This document shows positions 1 to 5,281 of a stretch of 6,259 nucleotides of DNA, in pieces; position 1 is the stretch's first letter, and every line of letters starts with the position of its first letter. A program made the translations under genes and the position numbers. Origin of the DNA: Escherichia phage NC29; the sequence record NC_007827.1. One strand, written 5' to 3'. The notes beneath the pieces are model-generated. The model was given only the letters and a program-made list of their open reading frames with translations, did not search any database and had not been told where the DNA came from.

Positions 1-64
1 TTATTGACAACTCCCAATCCCTTATGAGACTCTTGCTTCAATTAAATGACGTAGGAGTCTTTTT

Positions 65-433
65 ATGAAACCCGCTCATCGCCTTACTCATCCAATTCTT
101 GGTTCTTGGTTGTTTAAGTGTCCTGTTTATATTCGTTATGAGTCGCTTCATCATGGTCGCCTTATCAAGGTCCGTGCTGTTCGTGATTTGTCCCCTCGTC
201 AACGATTGATTGCTAATCCTAAGAATTGCTTTGACGTTGTTATTGCTGAAATTGATCTTACTTATGAAACCGTTACTTGGTTTGATTTTATGGATGAGGA
301 ATATGCCGCGTGTACCCCCGAGGTTATGCAGCTTCTCATTTCCTCTATTGACTCTTCTGATGTTATTCGTTCTGTAGAAGACCCGACCGTTGATTCAGGT
401 GATATGGATTGGCTTTATGAAATTGTGGAGTAA
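65..433 (+). CDS. hypothetical protein, H-A spacer ORF1 (122 aa; basic N-terminal half, strongly acidic C-terminal half)
   Basis: ATG at 65 preceded by SD-like TAGGAG (52-57, 7-nt spacing); uninterrupted 122-codon frame ending TAA 431-433; third codon positions strongly T-biased like the core phage genes; no resemblance I can recognise to phiX174 proteins A-H. Confidence 0.6.
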   Translation: MKPAHRLTHPILGSWLFKCPVYIRYESLHHGRLIKVRAVRDLSPRQRLIANPKNCFDVVIAEIDLTYETVTWFDFMDEEYAACTPEVMQLLISSIDSSDVIRSVEDPTVDSGDMDWLYEIVE

Positions 434-436
434 TTT

Positions 437-529
437 ATGGAAACTGTTATCGGAAAATTTATTGCTCTGGCTGTTGTTGCTCTTATGCTGTATGGAATTT
501 CCCGCTTGATTAGTAGGACTTTGAAATGA
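437..529 (+). CDS. hypothetical small hydrophobic peptide, H-A spacer ORF2 (30 aa, METVIGKFIALAVVALMLYGISRLISRTLK)
   Basis: ATG 437 lies 3 nt after the ORF1 stop, with GGAG (427-430) at 6-nt spacing; a hydrophobic core long enough for one transmembrane helix followed by a basic tail; T-biased third positions. Below the 60-aa cutoff of the supplied ORF track, found by hand translation. Confidence 0.4.
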   Translation: METVIGKFIALAVVALMLYGISRLISRTLK

Positions 530-702
530 AGTATTTTAGCCTTGTGGATGAACACTATGCTTATTGCCCTGATTCGCGCATTTTGCACATCACTCGTAGT
601 CGTGTTTCTGACCCTCGGTATGAGCGTCGTTTTCTTACTGATGAGGAGCATCTTGCACTTCTGGATTGGTTGAAAAATCGCCCAACTTATATTAATTCTT
701 GA
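526..702 (+). CDS. hypothetical protein, H-A spacer ORF3 (58 aa, MKYFSLVDEHYAYCPDSRILHITRSRVSDPRYERRFLTDEEHLALLDWLKNRPTYINS)
   Basis: ATG 526-528 overlaps the ORF2 stop TGA 527-529 (ATGA coupling); AGGA (515-518) at 7-nt spacing; T-biased third positions; stop TGA 700-702. Found by hand translation. Confidence 0.5.
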   Translation: MKYFSLVDEHYAYCPDSRILHITRSRVSDPRYERRFLTDEEHLALLDWLKNRPTYINS

Positions 703-728
703 CAAGTCTTTGATACACCGTCTATATT
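699..728 (+). promoter_or_regulatory. sigma70-like promoter upstream of gene A (pA-like): TTGACA - 18 nt - TATATT
   Basis: -35 TTGACA at 699-704 (6/6 consensus), 18-nt spacer, -10 TATATT at 723-728 (5/6); position equivalent to phiX174 pA just upstream of gene A. Confidence 0.45.
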
Positions 729-759
729 GCCCTCATAGTGATTCTACGAGGGCTTTTTT
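729..759 (+). terminator. intrinsic terminator-like hairpin plus T6 tract (T_H-like) immediately upstream of the gene A start
   Basis: GCCCTC (729-734) pairs with GAGGGC (748-753) and TAG (736-738) with CTA (744-746), 5-nt loop, followed by TTTTTT 754-759; GC-rich stem plus U-tract is the classic rho-independent architecture. Confidence 0.55.
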
Positions 760-761
760 GC

Positions 762-2246
762 ATGGCTACTGAAAACTTCTTCGATGTTGTTAAGACCGTC
801 TGGTCCCACGCTACGGCTAAGCACGCCCATCTTCGTATGGCTGTTCAGGTTGATAACCGCAGTCGCCTTCTCTCTGACCTCGTTTATCAGTTGGAAAAAC
901 GTCTTTCTGAAGAAACTCATCTGGATGATGAGACTTATTCCCTTTATGAATCTCAAACTGGTTTCTTGGAAGACCATATGTCTCTGGTTCGGAAGTGTGC
1001 TGCCCAACTTGATAATAGTAACACTATAGACCACCGTACCTCTTTGGATGCCGAATGTGTTTTCCTGTTTGAAATGATTTGCCCGGGTGTTCGCTACGGT
1101 AAAACGTTGAATTCTCTTTGGACTAAGTATGTTGCTCAATGGCCTGAGAAGTTAATTCGTCAAGAGTTAGACATGGTTAAGCCTTTATCCTTTAAGGATG
1201 AGGTTGCTAGGTACATGGAGAAGATGCAGGAAAAAACACGCAAAAATCGCATGACTCAAAAAGTAATTAATGAGATGCGTATTGCTCACCAAAAGGGCTG
1301 GTTTTTCGTATTTGATACTTTGACACTTGCTGATGACCGTTTGCAGGCTTTTAATGAAAACCCCAATGCTCTTCGTGATTATTTCAGGACTGTTGGTCGA
1401 GCTGTTCTGCGCGCTGAAGGTCGTTCGGTTAAGGATTCCTACAACGACTGCTATCGCTATCTTTGTGTGCCGGAGTTTGGAGGTCAGCACGGTCGTCTTC
1501 ATTGGCACGTTGTGCATATGGTGCGGACTCTTCCTTTGGGAAGTCACGACCCTAATTTCGGTCGCAAGGTACGTAATTATCGCCAGATTAACTCGTTCCG
1601 TGGCATGTGGCCTTATGGCTTCACGCAACCGATAGCTGTACGCTATCAACATGATGCTTATTCTCGCAAAGGTTGGTTGTGGCCTGTTGACAAATCAGGT
1701 AAAGCAATGCAGAGTAAGCCCTATCAGGCGGTCGCATGGTATGTGACCAAGTATGTAGCCAAGCAATCTGACCAGCGTCAGAAAGCTATTACTGAGAGAC
1801 AAAAAAAATGCAAGAATCCACTTATGGCAATCTGTCTGAAAAAGGAATTCAGAGTTCGCAGCAGCCGGAAGCTCGGAATGGAGTTACCGTCGATGGCGCA
1901 TCTCAGCAACAAAGTGCTTCTGGAGCTGAGTCGAATCAGCTTCGATTCCAGCCCTCTGTATCAGATAGTGAAAGAGAACGCCAAAAAGCAATTGACCTTG
2001 AACATCGGCGCGCTGCCTTTGCACGTCATTTTGGATGTGCGCCCGGAAGTGAGAAGTATGTTGAAAAATATCCGTCGTTTGATGAAAAAGACACCCGAGT
2101 TCAATTGGCAGAGTTCTATCGCTTCAATGACGGTCACCTTAAAAAATGGGGATATTTCTGATGAAGCACGTCAATACATTATTGATGCAGGAATTACGCC
2201 TTTTGATTTGCGAGCTAAAGCGACTCAAACTTTCGGCGGTAAGTGA
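762..2246 (+). CDS. A: replication initiation protein A (rolling-circle HUH endonuclease)
   Basis: Alignable along most of its length to phiX174 gpA as I remember it: HUH motif in HGRLHWHVVHMVRTLP, twin catalytic tyrosines in YVTKYVAKQSD, and GWFFVFDTLTLADDRL. The track ORF begins at GTG 738; I prefer the first ATG (762, MATENFF...). Stop TGA 2244-2246. Confidence 0.9.
   Translation: MATENFFDVVKTVWSHATAKHAHLRMAVQVDNRSRLLSDLVYQLEKRLSEETHLDDETYSLYESQTGFLEDHMSLVRKCAAQLDNSNTIDHRTSLDAECVFLFEMICPGVRYGKTLNSLWTKYVAQWPEKLIRQELDMVKPLSFKDEVARYMEKMQEKTRKNRMTQKVINEMRIAHQKGWFFVFDTLTLADDRLQAFNENPNALRDYFRTVGRAVLRAEGRSVKDSYNDCYRYLCVPEFGGQHGRLHWHVVHMVRTLPLGSHDPNFGRKVRNYRQINSFRGMWPYGFTQPIAVRYQHDAYSRKGWLWPVDKSGKAMQSKPYQAVAWYVTKYVAKQSDQRQKAITERQKKCKNPLMAICLKKEFRVRSSRKLGMELPSMAHLSNKVLLELSRISFDSSPLYQIVKENAKKQLTLNIGALPLHVILDVRPEVRSMLKNIRRLMKKTPEFNWQSSIASMTVTLKNGDISDEARQYIIDAGITPFDLRAKATQTFGGK
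1015..1044 (+). other. viral (+) strand replication origin, 30-nt gpA recognition/nick site inside gene A
   Basis: CAACTTGATAATAGTAACACTATAGACCAC matches the phiX174 30-nt origin CAACTTGATATTAATAACACTATAGACCAC (from memory) at 28/30 positions, both differences in the AT-rich spacer; the expected nick is between G1021 and A1022. Confidence 0.75.
1224..2246 (+). CDS. A*: A* (in-frame internal restart of A), start codon tentative
   Basis: phiX174 A* begins at an internal Met (MKSRRGF...) about 25 residues before the conserved GWF motif; the equivalent position here is flanked by in-frame ATGs at 1215, 1224 and 1251. None has a convincing SD, so the exact start is not determinable from sequence. 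Confidence 0.3.
   Translation: MQEKTRKNRMTQKVINEMRIAHQKGWFFVFDTLTLADDRLQAFNENPNALRDYFRTVGRAVLRAEGRSVKDSYNDCYRYLCVPEFGGQHGRLHWHVVHMVRTLPLGSHDPNFGRKVRNYRQINSFRGMWPYGFTQPIAVRYQHDAYSRKGWLWPVDKSGKAMQSKPYQAVAWYVTKYVAKQSDQRQKAITERQKKCKNPLMAICLKKEFRVRSSRKLGMELPSMAHLSNKVLLELSRISFDSSPLYQIVKENAKKQLTLNIGALPLHVILDVRPEVRSMLKNIRRLMKKTPEFNWQSSIASMTVTLKNGDISDEARQYIIDAGITPFDLRAKATQTFGGK
1808..2161 (+). CDS. B: internal scaffolding protein B (encoded within A in another frame)
   Basis: 117 aa; C-terminus ...RVQLAEFYRFNDGHLKKWGYF parallels phiX174 gpB ...RIQPAEFYRFHDAEVNTFGYF; acidic, Q/S-rich N-terminal half; entirely nested in gene A. Confidence 0.85.
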   Translation: MQESTYGNLSEKGIQSSQQPEARNGVTVDGASQQQSASGAESNQLRFQPSVSDSERERQKAIDLEHRRAAFARHFGCAPGSEKYVEKYPSFDEKDTRVQLAEFYRFNDGHLKKWGYF

Positions 2247-2479: not shown

Positions 2480-2712
2480 CTCATAGATAAATGAAGCAGT
2501 GGTGCAAAGTAGTTTATCTAAGTGGTAAGTTCAGTGAAGGGTGACCCGCTCTAAGTAGCTGAAGGGTGTTGGATGTAAGGACTCCGCGATTGACTGGTTT
2601 ATACTGGAACACTATCGGGTCAGTGAAGTGGCTGCTGAGAAATAGCCCTCTAGCTTTACGAAGACTAGGCTACATCGCGAACACCATTGTTACTTTTTTA
2701 TGGAGGATTTAT

Positions 2713-3280: not shown

Positions 3281-4564
3281 ATGTCAAATGTACAAACTTC
3301 CGCTGAGCGTATCCCTCATGACCTGTCTCATCTGGTTTTTGAAGCAGGCAAAATTGGTCGTTTAAAAGTTGTTTCTTGGACTCCTGTTGTTGCAGGTGAT
3401 TCTTTTGAGCTTGATATGATTGGCGCTATTCGCCTCTCCCCGCTTCGTCGTGGTCTTGCTGTTGACTCTCGCGTTGACTTGTTCACGTTTTATGTTCCTC
3501 ATCGTCATGTATATGGTGAGCAGTGGATTGAGTTTATTAAGGAAGGTGTCAATGCTCCACCGTTGGCTCCTGTTCAGTGCTCTCGTGGTTGGGATAGTGC
3601 GCAGTATCTCGCTACTATTCCGTCTTCTAACTTAAAGGTTCCTAAGTTCCTTCATCAAGGTTACTTGAACATTTACAATAACTATTTTAAAGCTCCGTGG
3701 ATGGATGACTTGACTTATGCCAACCCATCTAATATGGAAGGTGAAGATGTTCGTTTTGGTGTTCGTGCATGTAATTTAAAAACTATCTGGACTGCTCCGC
3801 TTCCTCCAGATACTGAGACTTCTCATTCTATGGAGACCGAGACCAACTCCATTGACATTATGGGTTTACAGGCCGCTTATGCTCAATTACATACCGAGCA
3901 GGAGCGTGATTACTTCATGACTCGTTATCGTGATATTGTTAACGAATTTGGTGGTAGTACTTCTTATGATGCGGATAATCGTCCTTTGCTTGTTATGCAT
4001 TCTGAGTTCTGGGCCTCAGGCTATGACGTCGACGGCACCGACCAAAGCTCTCTCGGTCAGTTCTCCGGTCGTGTTCAGCAGACGTTTAAGCATTCAGTAC
4101 CGCGATTCTTCTGTCCTGAGCATGGCACTATGTTCACACTCGCATTGGTCCGCTTCCCTCCGACTCATGAAATGGAGATGCATTACTTAGTTGGTAAAGA
4201 AAATTTGACTTATACTGATCTGGCTTGTGATCCTGCTTTGATGGCTAACTTGCCTCCGCGTGAGGTTAATATGTCTCAGTTCTTCCATTCTGGAAGTGCT
4301 AGTGCTAAGTTTAAGATCGCTGAGGGTCAGTGGTATCGTATGCAGCCTGACCGCGTTGCATTGCCGTATAACTATCTTGATGGTTTTCCGTTCTATAGTG
4401 CGATTCCGTCTCATGATATTAAGCAGCGTGTTCTGGTTAATACTGATAACTATGATGAGGTTTTCCAGTCTATGCAGCTTGCACACTGGAATATGCAGAC
4501 TAAGTTTAACTGCACGATTTATCGTAATATGCCGACCACTCGTGATTCTATTATGACCTCTTGA
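3281..4564 (+). CDS. F: major capsid protein F
   Basis: 427 aa; long blocks match phiX174 gpF (MSN.QT.AER.PHDLSHL, LRLSPLRRGLA.DS.VD.FTFYVPHRHVYGEQWI, QGYLNIYNNYFKAPWM, SIDIMGLQAAYA.LHT.QERDYFM.RYRD, SYDADNRPLLVM, GYDVDGTDQ.SLGQFSGRVQQT.KHSVPRFF.PEHGTMFTLALVRFPPT, TTRDSIMTS). Confidence 0.95.
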   Translation: MSNVQTSAERIPHDLSHLVFEAGKIGRLKVVSWTPVVAGDSFELDMIGAIRLSPLRRGLAVDSRVDLFTFYVPHRHVYGEQWIEFIKEGVNAPPLAPVQCSRGWDSAQYLATIPSSNLKVPKFLHQGYLNIYNNYFKAPWMDDLTYANPSNMEGEDVRFGVRACNLKTIWTAPLPPDTETSHSMETETNSIDIMGLQAAYAQLHTEQERDYFMTRYRDIVNEFGGSTSYDADNRPLLVMHSEFWASGYDVDGTDQSSLGQFSGRVQQTFKHSVPRFFCPEHGTMFTLALVRFPPTHEMEMHYLVGKENLTYTDLACDPALMANLPPREVNMSQFFHSGSASAKFKIAEGQWYRMQPDRVALPYNYLDGFPFYSAIPSHDIKQRVLVNTDNYDEVFQSMQLAHWNMQTKFNCTIYRNMPTTRDSIMTS

Positions 4565-4600: not shown

Positions 4601-5146
4601 ATGTTTCAAGTTTATGTAGCTAAGCATGTTGCTCCTTTTACTTCTATGAACCGTACCTTTTCTATCTCTCCTGCTGCTGCCCCGCAGGTTGTCAATTCTG
4701 GTGAGATTGTTGCAGGTCGTTCTACTTTTCGTATTGCTTCCTCTATTGGTTCTGCTTCTAATGGTAATGGTTTCGCATTCGTTCAGATGATGGACCCTAA
4801 CTCTCCTGATTCTCAACAGGTTTTCTCTGTTGCTGCGTCGCTATCTTTTAGTGTTGACTCGAATTATGTTCCTTGCGTTGTTCGTTTTGAAAGTAGTTTC
4901 TCTCAGCCTGGTCAATTTGCTATTGCTGAGGCTGATTTTATTCCGGTTGAGTCGTCAGCTCTTTCTGCTCGTGCGCTTAGCGTTCGTGATTGTGTTACTG
5001 TTGATGTTAAGCCTCGCGCTGAAGGTAATAATGTTTTTGTTGGACTGTTCTTGTCTTCTGCCGCCGCTAATGCTGGTAATGTTACTGGTGTCATTTCTAT
5101 GGCTCAGGTTGACCATGAAGTTACAGCTTTGCAGCCTCTTAAATAA
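4601..5146 (+). CDS. G: major spike protein G
   Basis: 181 aa from ATG 4601 (track ORF starts at TTG 4595); MFQ... N-terminus and CVVRFESS, DCVT.DV.PR..GNNV.VG, and C-terminal LQPLK match phiX174 gpG. Confidence 0.9.
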   Translation: MFQVYVAKHVAPFTSMNRTFSISPAAAPQVVNSGEIVAGRSTFRIASSIGSASNGNGFAFVQMMDPNSPDSQQVFSVAASLSFSVDSNYVPCVVRFESSFSQPGQFAIAEADFIPVESSALSARALSVRDCVTVDVKPRAEGNNVFVGLFLSSAAANAGNVTGVISMAQVDHEVTALQPLK

Positions 5147-5160
5147 AAGGCCGCCGCACT

Positions 5161-5256
5161 CTCGGTTATATGCCTGCCCAGTGTAGGGCGGACCGAGCCG
5201 TACGGAGATACCCGTGAAACTAGGAACGTGGAAGGCGTTAGCCGCCTTCCCTCCTG
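5161..5256 (+). other. candidate complementary (-) strand origin: three consecutive stem-loops in the GC-rich G-H spacer
   Basis: Hairpins: CTCGGT 5161-5166 / ACCGAG 5192-5197 enclosing 5174-5179 / 5186-5191; ACGG 5202-5205 / CCGT 5212-5215; GGAAGGCG 5230-5237 / CGCCTTCC 5243-5250 (perfect 8-bp stem, 5-nt loop); CTG at 5254-5256 just 3' of the last hairpin. G4-type phages prime at a multi-hairpin origin with DnaG alone. Confidence 0.4.
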
Positions 5257-5281
5257 CTAAGCCCAAAGGAGACTTTCAGCT

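What the first reader, a model, noticed from the sequence alone, without database searches (positions are those of the whole stretch)
65..702. Three translationally coupled ORFs occupy the H-A spacer, outside the canonical microvirus gene set
In phiX174 the H-A spacer is only a few tens of nt (from memory). Here about 760 nt lie between the H stop (window end, assuming circularity) and the A start, and 65-702 is almost entirely open on the + strand: ORF1 (65-433, 122 aa), ORF2 (437-529, 30 aa) and ORF3 (526-702, 58 aa). Each has an SD-like motif 6-7 nt upstream; the junctions are TAA-N3-ATG and an ATGA overlap; all three share the strong T-bias at third codon positions seen in A-H. The ORF3 stop is embedded in the -35 hexamer of the gene A promoter. 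I recognise none of the three products. The pA/T_H-like signals at 699-759 imply the block is inserted between H and the ancestral H-A control region and is transcribed as the tail of the late H message.
Basis: partly seen in the sequence, partly recalled or inferred. Interest (0 to 1): 0.8.

Follow-up and report, generated by a model that had tools for sequence, protein, structure and literature searches.

The report
Conserved extra genes in alpha3-like microviruses
The 760 bases between genes H and A of this alpha3-like microvirus carry three small genes that stay intact and under purifying selection in every known relative; earlier work noted them only as 'putative genes', and their function is still unknown.

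Summary
The window is a complete 6259-nt alpha3-like microvirus (Alphatrevirus).

They are real genes. All three frames stay open in 23 distinct H-A regions. dN/dS is 0.18 for ORF1 and 0.08 for ORF3, against 0.05-0.52 for genes A-H and about 1-1.8 for the off-frames. ORF1 also tolerates an in-frame 96-nt insertion.

They are not a new discovery. [quoted passage not shown] No homologue exists outside alpha3-like microviruses, and no family or fold match was found.

The block is bracketed by two copies of the pA/T_H module, and the copy just after H (1-64) is the closer match to the phiX174 spacer. ORF1's ATG sits where gene A's ATG sits in phiX174, and its SD lies in the hairpin's 3' arm.

ORF1's acidic C-terminal half is as variable as spike gene G and is shuffled by recombination. 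This suggests a host-interaction accessory cassette. Function remains inferred.

The parts
1..64 (+). Module 1: an upstream copy of the pA/T_H-type control region. It holds the -35 TTGACA at 4-9, the weak -10-like GAGACT at 26-31, hairpin 26-61 and T-run 60-64.
   Evidence: It aligns to the phiX174 H-A spacer with z 5.2 (0 of 500 shuffles reach the score) and to the G4 spacer with z 3.7. TTGAC(A/T) is kept in 21 of 21 relatives.
26..61 (+). Hairpin 1. It has an 11-bp lower stem and contains ORF1's SD (AGGAG 54-58) in its 3' arm. In the window it is followed by U5.
   Evidence: The fold is -16.9 kcal/mol with z -4.8. The stem is kept in 21 sequences, with compensatory changes at two pairs (GU/GC/AU/UA and CG/GC/AU). 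The U-run is degenerate in L027 and L029.
65..433 (+). ORF1, 122 aa (14.2 kDa). The N-terminal half is basic and conserved; the C-terminal half is acidic and hypervariable.
   Evidence: It is open in 22 of 23 relatives. dN/dS is 0.18 overall, 0.06 for the N half and 0.32 for the C half. An in-frame 96-nt insertion occurs in L018 and L027. The AF2 model has pLDDT 87.5 and pTM 0.80. The pI is 10.0 for residues 1-66 and 4.05 for residues 67-122.
437..529 (+). ORF2, 30 aa. It is predicted to be a single-pass membrane peptide (GRAVY 1.21, basic C-terminal tail).
   Evidence: It is open in 23 of 23 relatives. Its substitutions are conservative for a membrane helix (I/V/L, F/L, A/S/T). GGAG lies 6 nt upstream of its ATG. 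Its coding status is less certain: dN/dS is 0.36 with an unusually low dS of 0.14.
417..509 (+). An overlapping +1-frame ORF of 30 aa from its ATG (39 aa from the TTG at 390). Its status is unresolved.
   Evidence: It is open in all relatives, including the divergent L029. Its dN/dS of 0.20 is lower than ORF2's. However, it has radical singleton substitutions, no clear SD and no start-stop coupling.
526..702 (+). ORF3, 58 aa (7.1 kDa). It is predicted to be four beta strands followed by one helix. Its start overlaps the ORF2 stop, and its own stop lies in the -35 of pA.
   Evidence: dN/dS is 0.08. It is open in 23 of 23 relatives. The start is GTG in most and ATG in the window, ID32 and L022-L025. 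The AF2 model has pLDDT 82.
699..728 (+). The pA promoter of module 2: TTGACA, an 18-nt spacer, then TATATT.
   Evidence: It matches the consensus at 11 of 12 positions, the best in the genome. It aligns to the G4 H-A spacer with z 5.1.
729..759 (+). Hairpin 2 (GCCCTC at 729-734 pairing with GAGGGC at 748-753) plus T6. The SD of gene A (GAGGG 748-752) lies in its 3' arm, and the gene A ATG is at 762.
   Evidence: The fold is -13.8 kcal/mol with z -3.0. There is a compensatory U-A to A-U switch at one pair in 5 of 19 sequences.

Best explanation
ORF1, ORF2 and ORF3 are three real protein-coding genes. Together they form a compact, translationally coupled accessory operon that is specific to alpha3-like microviruses (Alphatrevirus).

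Two copies of the ancestral H-A control module bracket the operon. Each copy has a -35 hexamer, a -10 hexamer, a hairpin, a U-run, an SD in the hairpin's 3' arm and then an ATG. ORF1 starts where gene A starts in phiX174 and G4.

Inferred expression: long late transcripts meet hairpin 1 just after H. Those that read through carry ORF1's SD locked in the stem. Transcripts that start inside the hairpin from the module-1 promoter remnant would have a free SD, just as phiX174 pA transcripts start in the loop of the T_H hairpin. Ribosomes finishing ORF1 then re-initiate at ORF2 (TAA-N3-ATG) and at ORF3 (ATGA or GTGA). Transcription then ends at hairpin 2 or continues into gene A.

Inferred products: a 14-kDa soluble protein with a conserved basic N half and a polymorphic acidic C half; a 3-kDa membrane peptide; and a 7-kDa soluble protein of four beta strands and a helix.

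Inferred role: these are not part of the replication or assembly core. They are a host-interaction or infection-modulating cassette, with the ORF1 C half as the specificity-determining part.
For: Coding (shown):
- The frames are open and in register in 23 distinct H-A regions.
- dN/dS is 0.18 for ORF1 and 0.08 for ORF3. The off-frames give 1.0-1.8 and bona fide genes give 0.05-0.52.
- The 96-nt insertion in ORF1 is in frame.
- A 129-aa allele (HMMER E 6e-16 against the ORF1 profile, conserved motifs only) stays open at the same place.
- Start-stop coupling is kept in both junction types.
- T3 bias equals that of the phage genes.
- Independent gene callers call all three.

Architecture (shown):
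- Module 1 against phiX174 gives z 5.2, and module 2 against G4 gives z 5.1.
- Both hairpins are stable and show covariation.
- The phiX174 TSS at 3962 falls in the hairpin loop.
- NC35 lacks the pA -10 and the 5' arm of hairpin 2. No strong sigma-70 -10 remains next to its gene A.

Accessory and host-facing role (inferred):
- phiX174 and G4 lack the block.
- The products have no homologues in 5.8 billion or 1.84 billion proteins other than on microvirus contigs of roughly 0.6-6.3 kb.
- Positions 301-400 have the highest nucleotide diversity in the genome (0.31), equal to spike gene G.
- ORF1 C-half alleles are shuffled independently of the rest of the genome. NC3 and alpha3 are 93% identical in the ORF1 C half but 69% in F and 55% in G. 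phiK and St-1 are 66% identical in the ORF1 C half but 97% in F and G.
- The St-1 laboratory stock carries a frameshift in ORF1 and still grows.
Against: - No transcript, ribosome or peptide data were available.
- The module-1 -10 element is poor (GAGACT, 3 of 6) and failed the promoter scan.
- ORF1's SD is buried in a -16.9 kcal/mol stem.
- No family, fold or defence-related match supports any specific function.
- The block is present in every alpha3-like genome found, about 30. That also fits an essential, clade-specific role.
- The St-1 frameshift could be a homopolymer sequencing error.
- The coding signal of ORF2 is ambiguous.
Confidence: 0.6

Rival explanations
1. The block has no promoter of its own and is expressed only as the 3' tail of late pB/pD transcripts that read through from gene H.
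For: All microvirus genes lie on one strand, and phiX174 terminators are known to be leaky (established knowledge). Module 1 lacks a good -10 and was not called by the promoter scan. The U-run after hairpin 1 is short or degenerate in several relatives, which favours read-through.
Against: On such transcripts ORF1's SD is paired in a conserved stem of 11-13 bp. TTGAC(A/T) at 4-9 is kept in 21 of 21 genomes although it is non-coding. The geometry of -35, -10 position and hairpin is that of phiX174 pA, whose TSS lies in the hairpin loop.
Confidence: 0.3
2. Only ORF1 and ORF3 are genes. The stretch 437-529 is either translated in the +1 frame (ORF 417-509) or constrained as an RNA or DNA element, and the ORF2 peptide is not made.
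For: dS across 437-514 is 0.14, against 0.72 and 0.42 in the flanking ORFs. The +1 frame has a lower dN/dS (0.20 against 0.36) and is open in all genomes, including L029. The common polymorphisms fall on ORF2 first positions, which are third positions in the +1 frame.
Against: ORF2 has GGAG 6 nt upstream, starts 3 nt after the ORF1 stop and overlaps the ORF3 start in all genomes. The +1 ORF has none of these features. ORF2's amino-acid changes are all conservative for a membrane helix, while the +1 frame takes S>L, E>G, L>P and P>L changes. No stable RNA structure is predicted (z 0.03). A natural ORF2-ORF3 in-frame fusion exists (P0022).
Confidence: 0.15
3. The three proteins are essential, clade-specific parts of the alpha3-type life cycle, for example in DNA replication or gene A regulation, rather than dispensable accessory genes.
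For: The block is present in every alpha3-like genome found and no natural deletion variant was seen. ORF3 is as constrained as gene D, at 0.08 against 0.10. ORF3 overlaps the -35 of pA. ORF1 C-half alleles show a modest association with a polymorphic stretch of gene A (Mantel rho 0.42, p 0.001).
Against: phiX174 and G4 complete the same life cycle without these proteins. The St-1 sequence carries an ORF1 frameshift. Hypervariability and allele shuffling of ORF1 are unusual for a core function. The association with gene A can be explained by residual linkage.
Confidence: 0.15
4. The region is a non-coding spacer or structural DNA/RNA element, and the ORFs are chance products of T-rich composition.
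For: Chance ORFs of 100-155 aa occur elsewhere in this genome.
Against: The frame-specific dN/dS of 0.08-0.18 contrasts with about 1-1.8 in the off-frames. Variable sites by codon position are 44, 34 and 98 in ORF1. Indels are in frame. The minus-strand ORF 415-705 is broken by stops in 7 of 15 relatives. The G4-type complementary-strand origin maps to 5146-5270, not here.
Confidence: 0.03

Closest known systems
The 'extra region with putative genes' of alpha3-clade microviruses. It is described in Chantranupong & Heineman 2012 (PMC3324380), citing Rokyta et al. 2006, and annotated as hypothetical proteins QBZ71502-QBZ71504 in phage Lilleven (MK629527).
   Same: The position between H and A is the same. 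The three ORFs have the same sizes (122, 29-30 and 58 aa). ORF1 is 76% and ORF3 is 88-90% identical at the amino-acid level.
   Different: The window carries a distinct allele of the ORF1 C half, only 60-65% nucleotide identity to GenBank relatives over 301-400. It also has the ATG-type ORF2/ORF3 junction. No held paper gives selection, expression or function data. 22 of 25 GenBank records leave ORF1 unannotated, and a 2026 alpha3-like genome paper (PMC13029530) describes only the canonical A-K genes.
The phiX174/G4 H-A control region (pA promoter overlapping the T_H hairpin).
   Same: The order is the same: TTGACA shortly after the H stop, a -10, a GC-rich hairpin, a U-run, an SD in the hairpin's 3' arm and an ATG. 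The phiX174 TSS lies in the hairpin loop.
   Different: Here the module is present twice, 700 nt apart. The upstream copy has a degenerate -10 and serves ORF1 instead of gene A.
Phage 'morons' and accessory ORFan cassettes: an extra gene or genes with their own promoter and terminator inserted between conserved genes of lambdoid phages (from established knowledge, not tested here).
   Same: It is a lineage-specific insertion between two core genes, flanked by promoter-like and terminator-like signals. It has no homologues elsewhere and has a mosaic distribution of alleles.
   Different: This is a lytic 6-kb ssDNA virus. The codon bias is native rather than foreign, and the flanking signals are duplicates of the phage's own control region.
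phiX174 gene K: a small, non-essential, hydrophobic protein (from established knowledge).
   Same: ORF2 is likewise a very small hydrophobic peptide in a microvirus and probably not needed for plaque formation.
   Different: There is no sequence similarity. K overlaps genes A and C, whereas ORF2 stands alone. The window has its own K at 2146-2322.

Membership tests
Alphatrevirus H-A putative-gene cluster (Lilleven QBZ71502-04 homologues) | Located between the gene H stop and the gene A start, on the same strand | tested here: met
   Positions 65-702 lie between the H stop (6259) and the A ATG (762). The layout is the same in Lilleven and in 9 metagenomic contigs.
Alphatrevirus H-A putative-gene cluster (Lilleven QBZ71502-04 homologues) | Sequence homology of the products | tested here: met
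   ORF1 matches at E 2e-52 with 76% identity. ORF3 matches at E 1e-28 with 88% identity. ORF2 is 25 of 29 residues identical to Lilleven's.
Canonical Bullavirinae gene set (A, A*, B, C, D, E, F, G, H, J, K) | Homology to one of the 11 gene families | tested here: not met
   There is no Pfam, PHROG or NCBIfam hit. There is no significant similarity to the rest of the window or to G4 in any frame.
phiX174-type pA/T_H control module | -35 TTGAC(A/T) within about 10 nt of the H stop, plus a hairpin, a U-run, an SD in the 3' arm and an ATG | tested here: met
   Module 1 (1-67) has all of these. Alignment to the phiX174 spacer gives z 5.2.
phiX174-type pA/T_H control module | A functional -10 hexamer 16-18 nt after the -35 | tested here: inconclusive
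   Module 2 has TATATT with an 18-nt spacer (met). Module 1 has only GAGACT with a 16-nt spacer, 3 of 6, and was not called by the scan. Promoter activity cannot be tested here.
Intrinsic (rho-independent) terminator | A GC-rich stem directly followed by a U-tract | tested here: inconclusive
   Hairpin 2 plus T6 meets the definition. Hairpin 1 has a stable stem, but its U-tract is 5 nt in the window, interrupted in several relatives and absent in L027 and L029. Neither was called by the simple scan because of loop size and bulges.
Translationally coupled operon | Stop and start codons overlapping or within a few nucleotides, kept across relatives | tested here: met
   The ORF1/ORF2 junction is TAA-N3-ATG (TAAATG in L029). 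The ORF2/ORF3 junction is ATGA or GTGA in all but ID32, which has TGAAATG. Actual coupling cannot be tested here.
DNA-mimic anti-restriction proteins (Ocr, ArdA type) | Homology or fold match, with negative charge along the whole protein | tested here: not met
Known anti-phage defence proteins (PADLOC) | A profile match | tested here: not met
   There were no matches for ORF1-3 or P0030.
G4-type primase-dependent complementary-strand origin | Homology to the G4 F-G intergenic origin | tested here: not met
   The G4 origin aligns to window 5146-5270 in the G-H spacer, not to 1-761.

The most novel reading that the evidence does not exclude
The cassette would be the first accessory, host-directed (counter-defence or host-specificity) module described in Bullavirinae.
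- It would be gated by a duplicated promoter-in-hairpin switch, so that it is translated only from transcripts that start inside hairpin 1.
- ORF1 would be a balanced polymorphism: at least six allelic classes of its acidic C half, exchanged by recombination independently of the capsid and spike genes.
- The ORFs would have arisen de novo in an expanded, duplicated H-A spacer, because no homologue exists anywhere else.
- A sub-case is that 417-529 is dual-coding for two different membrane peptides.
Probability: 0.25. Interest if true: 0.7.

Novelty: already known. Interest (0 to 1): 0.45.

Why it matters
phiX174-type phages are treated as fully annotated 11-gene systems. Their alpha3-like sister genus consistently carries three more genes under selection as strong as that on the capsid genes, yet most database records and even a 2026 genome paper omit them.

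Showing what these genes do would extend the gene set of one of the best-studied virus groups. It would also give a tractable case of ORFan genes in a 6-kb genome. The recombining, hypervariable ORF1 suggests a host arms-race function that nobody has looked for in microviruses. The experiment is simple, because stop-codon mutants can be made in a 6-kb synthetic genome.

Tried and rejected
Searches that returned nothing useful:
- Pfam, PHROGs, NCBIfam and PADLOC scans gave nothing below E 0.03.
- PDB sequence profiles gave nothing.
- BFVD returned only the Lilleven orthologue.
- afdb50 was unavailable.
- The exhaustive HMMER profile search returned only three representative clusters, all from microviruses.
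- A search with the divergent allele P0030 returned only P0030 itself.

Ideas tested and not supported:
- ORF1-N and ORF3 as paralogues: hhalign probability 1%. There is only a 16-residue local likeness between the ORF3 C-terminus and the ORF1 N-terminus, E 0.055.
- Origin by duplication of the phage's own genes: no significant self-similarity in any frame.
- The H-A region as complementary-strand origin: rejected, because the origin homologue is in the G-H spacer.
- The minus-strand ORF 415-705: rejected, because relatives have stops in that frame.
- A stable RNA structure across ORF2: none found (z 0.03).
- A natural deletion variant lacking the block: none among 13 IMG/VR loci or 25 GenBank records.

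Literature not available: Rokyta 2006 and Kodaira 1992 could not be read because they are not held.
Full report
IDENTITY OF THE WINDOW. The window is a complete circular genome of an alpha3-like microvirus (Microviridae, Bullavirinae, Alphatrevirus). It starts at the base after the gene H stop. It is 92-93% identical over most of its length to coliphages NC3, ID32 and WA13, but only about 83% identical over bases 1-800. It is IMG/VR record UViG_2974698926. Its sibling records are the Rokyta 2006 isolates, but its GenBank identity was not verified. Genes A, B, K, C, D, E, J, F, G and H are all present.

CHECK OF THE OBSERVATION.
- ORF1 is 65-433 (122 aa), ORF2 is 437-529 (30 aa) and ORF3 is 526-702 (58 aa).
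- The junctions are TAA-TTT-ATG and ATGA.
- The SD-like motifs are AGGAG 54-58, GGAG 427-430 and the weaker AGGA 514-517.
- Third-position T is 0.59, 0.48 and 0.58, within the 0.38-0.66 range of genes A-H and well above the off-frames for ORF1 and ORF3.
- The ORF3 stop lies inside TTGACA (699-704). With TATATT (723-728) this is the best promoter match in the genome.
- The spacer is 761 nt, against 63 nt in phiX174 and 58 nt in G4.

ORF length by itself is not significant, because spurious minus-strand ORFs of up to 155 aa occur in the same genome.

ARE THEY GENES? I compared 23 distinct H-A regions: the window, 13 GenBank phages and 9 metagenomic contigs.
- All three frames are open and in register everywhere, with these exceptions:
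  - The 1992 alpha3 sequence has a 1-nt gap that is absent from the resequenced alpha3, so it is a sequencing error.
  - St-1 has a 1-nt deletion in ORF1.
  - phiK has lost the ORF3 stop, and L026 has an altered ORF3 C-terminus.
- Nei-Gojobori dN/dS is 0.18 for ORF1 (0.06 in the N half, 0.32 in the C half) and 0.08 for ORF3. The two off-frames give 1.0-1.8.
- On the same alignment the accepted genes give A 0.05, C 0.05, D 0.10, H 0.14, F 0.19 and G 0.52.
- In ORF1, 98 of 121 third positions vary, against 44 first positions and 34 second positions.
- Two contigs carry a 96-nt in-frame insertion right after ORF1's third codon.
- One contig (L029) has a highly divergent 129-aa ORF1 allele (HMMER E 6e-16, conserved motifs only). 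It is still open and still abuts ORF2, while ORF2, ORF3, H and A on that contig remain closely similar to the other alpha3-like phages.
- The minus-strand ORF 415-705 is interrupted by stops in 7 of 15 relatives.

ORF2 IS LESS CLEAR. Its amino-acid changes are all conservative for a membrane helix (I/V/L, F/L, A/S/T). It has an SD, and it is coupled to both neighbours. However, its dS is only 0.14, against 0.72 and 0.42 in the flanking ORFs. An overlapping +1-frame ORF (417-509) is open in every genome and has a lower dN/dS of 0.20. No stable RNA fold explains this. Dual coding or another constraint cannot be excluded.

WHAT ARE THE PRODUCTS?
- There is no match in Pfam, PHROGs, NCBIfam, PADLOC or PDB sequences.
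- Word-indexed searches of 5.8 billion proteins found 19 relatives of ORF1 and 10 relatives of ORF3. Every contig retrieved carries microvirus genes, and no contig exceeds 6.3 kb.
- An exhaustive HMMER profile search of 1.84 billion representatives found three clusters, all from microviruses.
- tblastn against 50,697 phage records hit only the 25 alpha3-like records. ORF1 is unannotated in 22 of them.
- AlphaFold2 gives confident models:
  - ORF1 has pLDDT 87.5 and pTM 0.80 and is mostly beta with two helices.
  - ORF3 has pLDDT 82 and is four strands followed by one helix.
- The ORF1 N half is basic (pI 10.0) and nearly invariant. Its C half has 15 acidic residues against 1 basic residue (pI 4.05).
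- ORF2 is hydrophobic (GRAVY 1.21) with a basic tail.

THE CONTROL REGIONS. The spacers compare as follows.
- phiX174: TAA-N9-TTGACA-N17-TTTCAT-GCCTCC/GGAGGC hairpin-T6-ATG(A). The annotated transcription start (3962) lies in the hairpin loop, and gene A's SD lies in the 3' arm.
- G4: built in the same way.
- Window: this module occurs twice.
  - Module 1 (1-67) is TAA|TTA-TTGACA-ACTCCCAATCCCTTATG-..., followed by a hairpin at 26-61 (-16.9 kcal/mol, z -4.8), T5 and then ATG(ORF1). ORF1's SD lies in the 3' arm.

Module 1 is the better match to the phiX174 spacer (z 5.2, 0 of 500 shuffles). Module 2 matches G4 best (z 5.1) and does not match phiX174 significantly (z 1.5). TTGAC(A/T) at 4-9 and the stem of hairpin 1 are kept in all 21 distinct sequences, with compensatory changes at two stem pairs. 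Hairpin 2 has a U-A to A-U switch in 5 of 19 sequences. The U-run after hairpin 1 is variable and is missing in two contigs. The -10 position of module 1 is weak (GAGACT).

Phage NC35 has a 29-nt deletion that removes the pA -10 and the 5' arm of hairpin 2. No strong -10 remains next to its gene A, which suggests its gene A may be transcribed through the block from upstream.

The block is therefore bracketed by duplicated control modules, and ORF1 sits in gene A's ancestral position.

ORF1 IS A SHUFFLED POLYMORPHISM. Nucleotide diversity at 301-400 is 0.31, the highest in the genome and equal to spike gene G. The C-half alleles fall into at least six classes. These classes do not follow the rest of the genome:
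- NC3 and alpha3 are 93% identical in the ORF1 C half but 69% in F and 55% in G.
- phiK and St-1 are 66% identical in the ORF1 C half but 97% in F and G.

The distance matrix of the ORF1 C half correlates with no other part of the genome, with two exceptions. One is ORF1 itself together with module 1. The other is, weakly, bases 850-1050 of gene A (Mantel rho 0.42-0.43, p 0.001-0.002), which may be residual linkage.

MOST LIKELY MECHANISM. Shown: there are three coding sequences with start-stop coupling, flanked by two structured promoter/terminator-type modules. Inferred from the phiX174 design:
- Long late transcripts largely stop at hairpin 1 or carry ORF1's SD in paired form.
- Transcripts that start inside hairpin 1 (near 38) from the module-1 promoter remnant would expose the SD.
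- ORF2 and ORF3 are then translated by re-initiation.
- RNA ends at hairpin 2 or continues into gene A.

Inferred role: an accessory, host-facing cassette. The grounds are that it is absent from phiX174 and G4, has no homologues elsewhere, has a hypervariable recombining ORF1, and is possibly dispensable in the St-1 laboratory stock. I give about 0.9 to 'ORF1 and ORF3 are translated genes', about 0.7 to ORF2, about 0.5 to the promoter-in-hairpin route, and about 0.3-0.4 to a host-interaction or counter-defence role.

COMPARISON WITH WHAT IS KNOWN. [quoted passage not shown] 2006 (PMC3324380). Lilleven (MK629527) annotates three hypothetical proteins at the same places. An old alpha3 record marks four ribosome-binding sites in the spacer. 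A 2026 paper on an alpha3-like phage still describes only the canonical A-K genes (PMC13029530). The feature is therefore already known as putative genes. No held paper gives selection, expression or function data. I could not read Rokyta 2006 or Kodaira 1992, so they may contain more than I credit.

LIMITS.
- There are no expression data of any kind.
- dN/dS was computed pairwise and is not tree-based.
- Recombination was not modelled.
- The structure models rest on shallow alignments of 19 and 11 sequences.
- The St-1 frameshift may be a sequencing error.

Noticed in passing
window 2480-2712 (C-D intergenic region): About 190 nt here are absent from all other alpha3-like genomes, whose C-D spacers are 27-73 nt.
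- Positions 2493-2649 match unannotated 5' regions of a hypothetical gene in about 75-kb Kuravirus coliphages (MN03, FS2B, XT32, Bas89) at 75-79% identity (E 5e-23). They also partly match Vequintavirinae phages.
- RNAalifold on 5 sequences predicts a multi-helix structure of 57 pairs. 14 of the pairs show compensatory double changes, and one hairpin has a GNRA-type loop.
- There is no Rfam 15 hit and no tRNA.
- It lies between a pD-like promoter (2448-2476) and the D start (2713).

This looks like an undescribed structured RNA element shared between an ssDNA phage and dsDNA phages.
   Followed up: partly
window 417-509 (from the TTG at 390), + strand, +1 frame relative to ORF2: This overlapping ORF (MKLWSNLWKLLSENLLLWLLLLLCCMEFPA) is open in all relatives, including the divergent L029. 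Synonymous divergence across 437-514 is unusually low (dS 0.14). Possible explanations are dual coding or a nucleotide-level constraint.
   Followed up: partly
L006 (phage NC35), about 705-735 in alignment coordinates; corresponds to window 706-734: A 29-nt deletion removes the pA -10 hexamer and the 5' arm of hairpin 2 in a viable natural isolate. Its gene A therefore has no strong sigma-70 -10 next to it.
   Followed up: no
L014 (St-1, GQ149088) near base 231; L013 (alpha3, X60322) near base 194: Each has a single-base deletion that frameshifts ORF1. The alpha3 deletion is absent from the resequenced DQ085810, so it is a sequencing error. The St-1 deletion lies in a T-run and may be real or an error.
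   Followed up: partly
L018 82-546 and L027 80-544 (metagenomic contigs of 6303 and 6193 nt): ORF1 carries an in-frame 96-nt insertion just after its third codon, giving 154 aa. The original MKP start is then echoed as FKP or SKS after the insert.
   Followed up: partly
L029 820-1209 (SRR20337160 contig): A highly divergent ORF1 allele (P0030, 129 aa, a singleton in 5.8 billion proteins) sits between near-identical H, ORF2, ORF3 and A sequences. Only the motifs AHR..HP..G.WLFK.PVY, ANPKNC and D.D(Y/W).YE are kept.
   Followed up: partly
window 850-1050 (gene A, residues about 30-97): A dimorphic stretch of gene A (DDETYALYESQTG against DDETLAVYESQTA) is associated with the allele class of the ORF1 C half (Mantel rho 0.42-0.43, p 0.001-0.002). 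The intervening ORF2 shows only a weak association (rho 0.24) and ORF3 none (rho 0.03). The cause may be linkage or co-adaptation.
   Followed up: partly
window 5146-5270 (G-H intergenic region): This stretch is clearly homologous to the G4 F-G intergenic region that holds the primase-dependent complementary-strand origin. In this phage the origin is therefore between G and H.
   Followed up: yes
window 649-696 compared with 89-136: The ORF3 C-terminus HLALLDWLKNRPTYIN resembles the ORF1 N-terminus HPILGSWLFKCPVYIR: 44% identity over 16 residues, hhalign E 0.055, and 27 of 48 nucleotides identical by my hand count. It may be chance or a trace of an old duplication.
   Followed up: no
L012 (phiK, X60323) 695-734; protein P0022 (761-nt ENA contig): phiK has TTGGCA instead of TTGACA. 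This weakens the pA -35 and removes the ORF3 stop, adding 12 aa. P0022 is a natural in-frame ORF2-ORF3 fusion protein.
   Followed up: no
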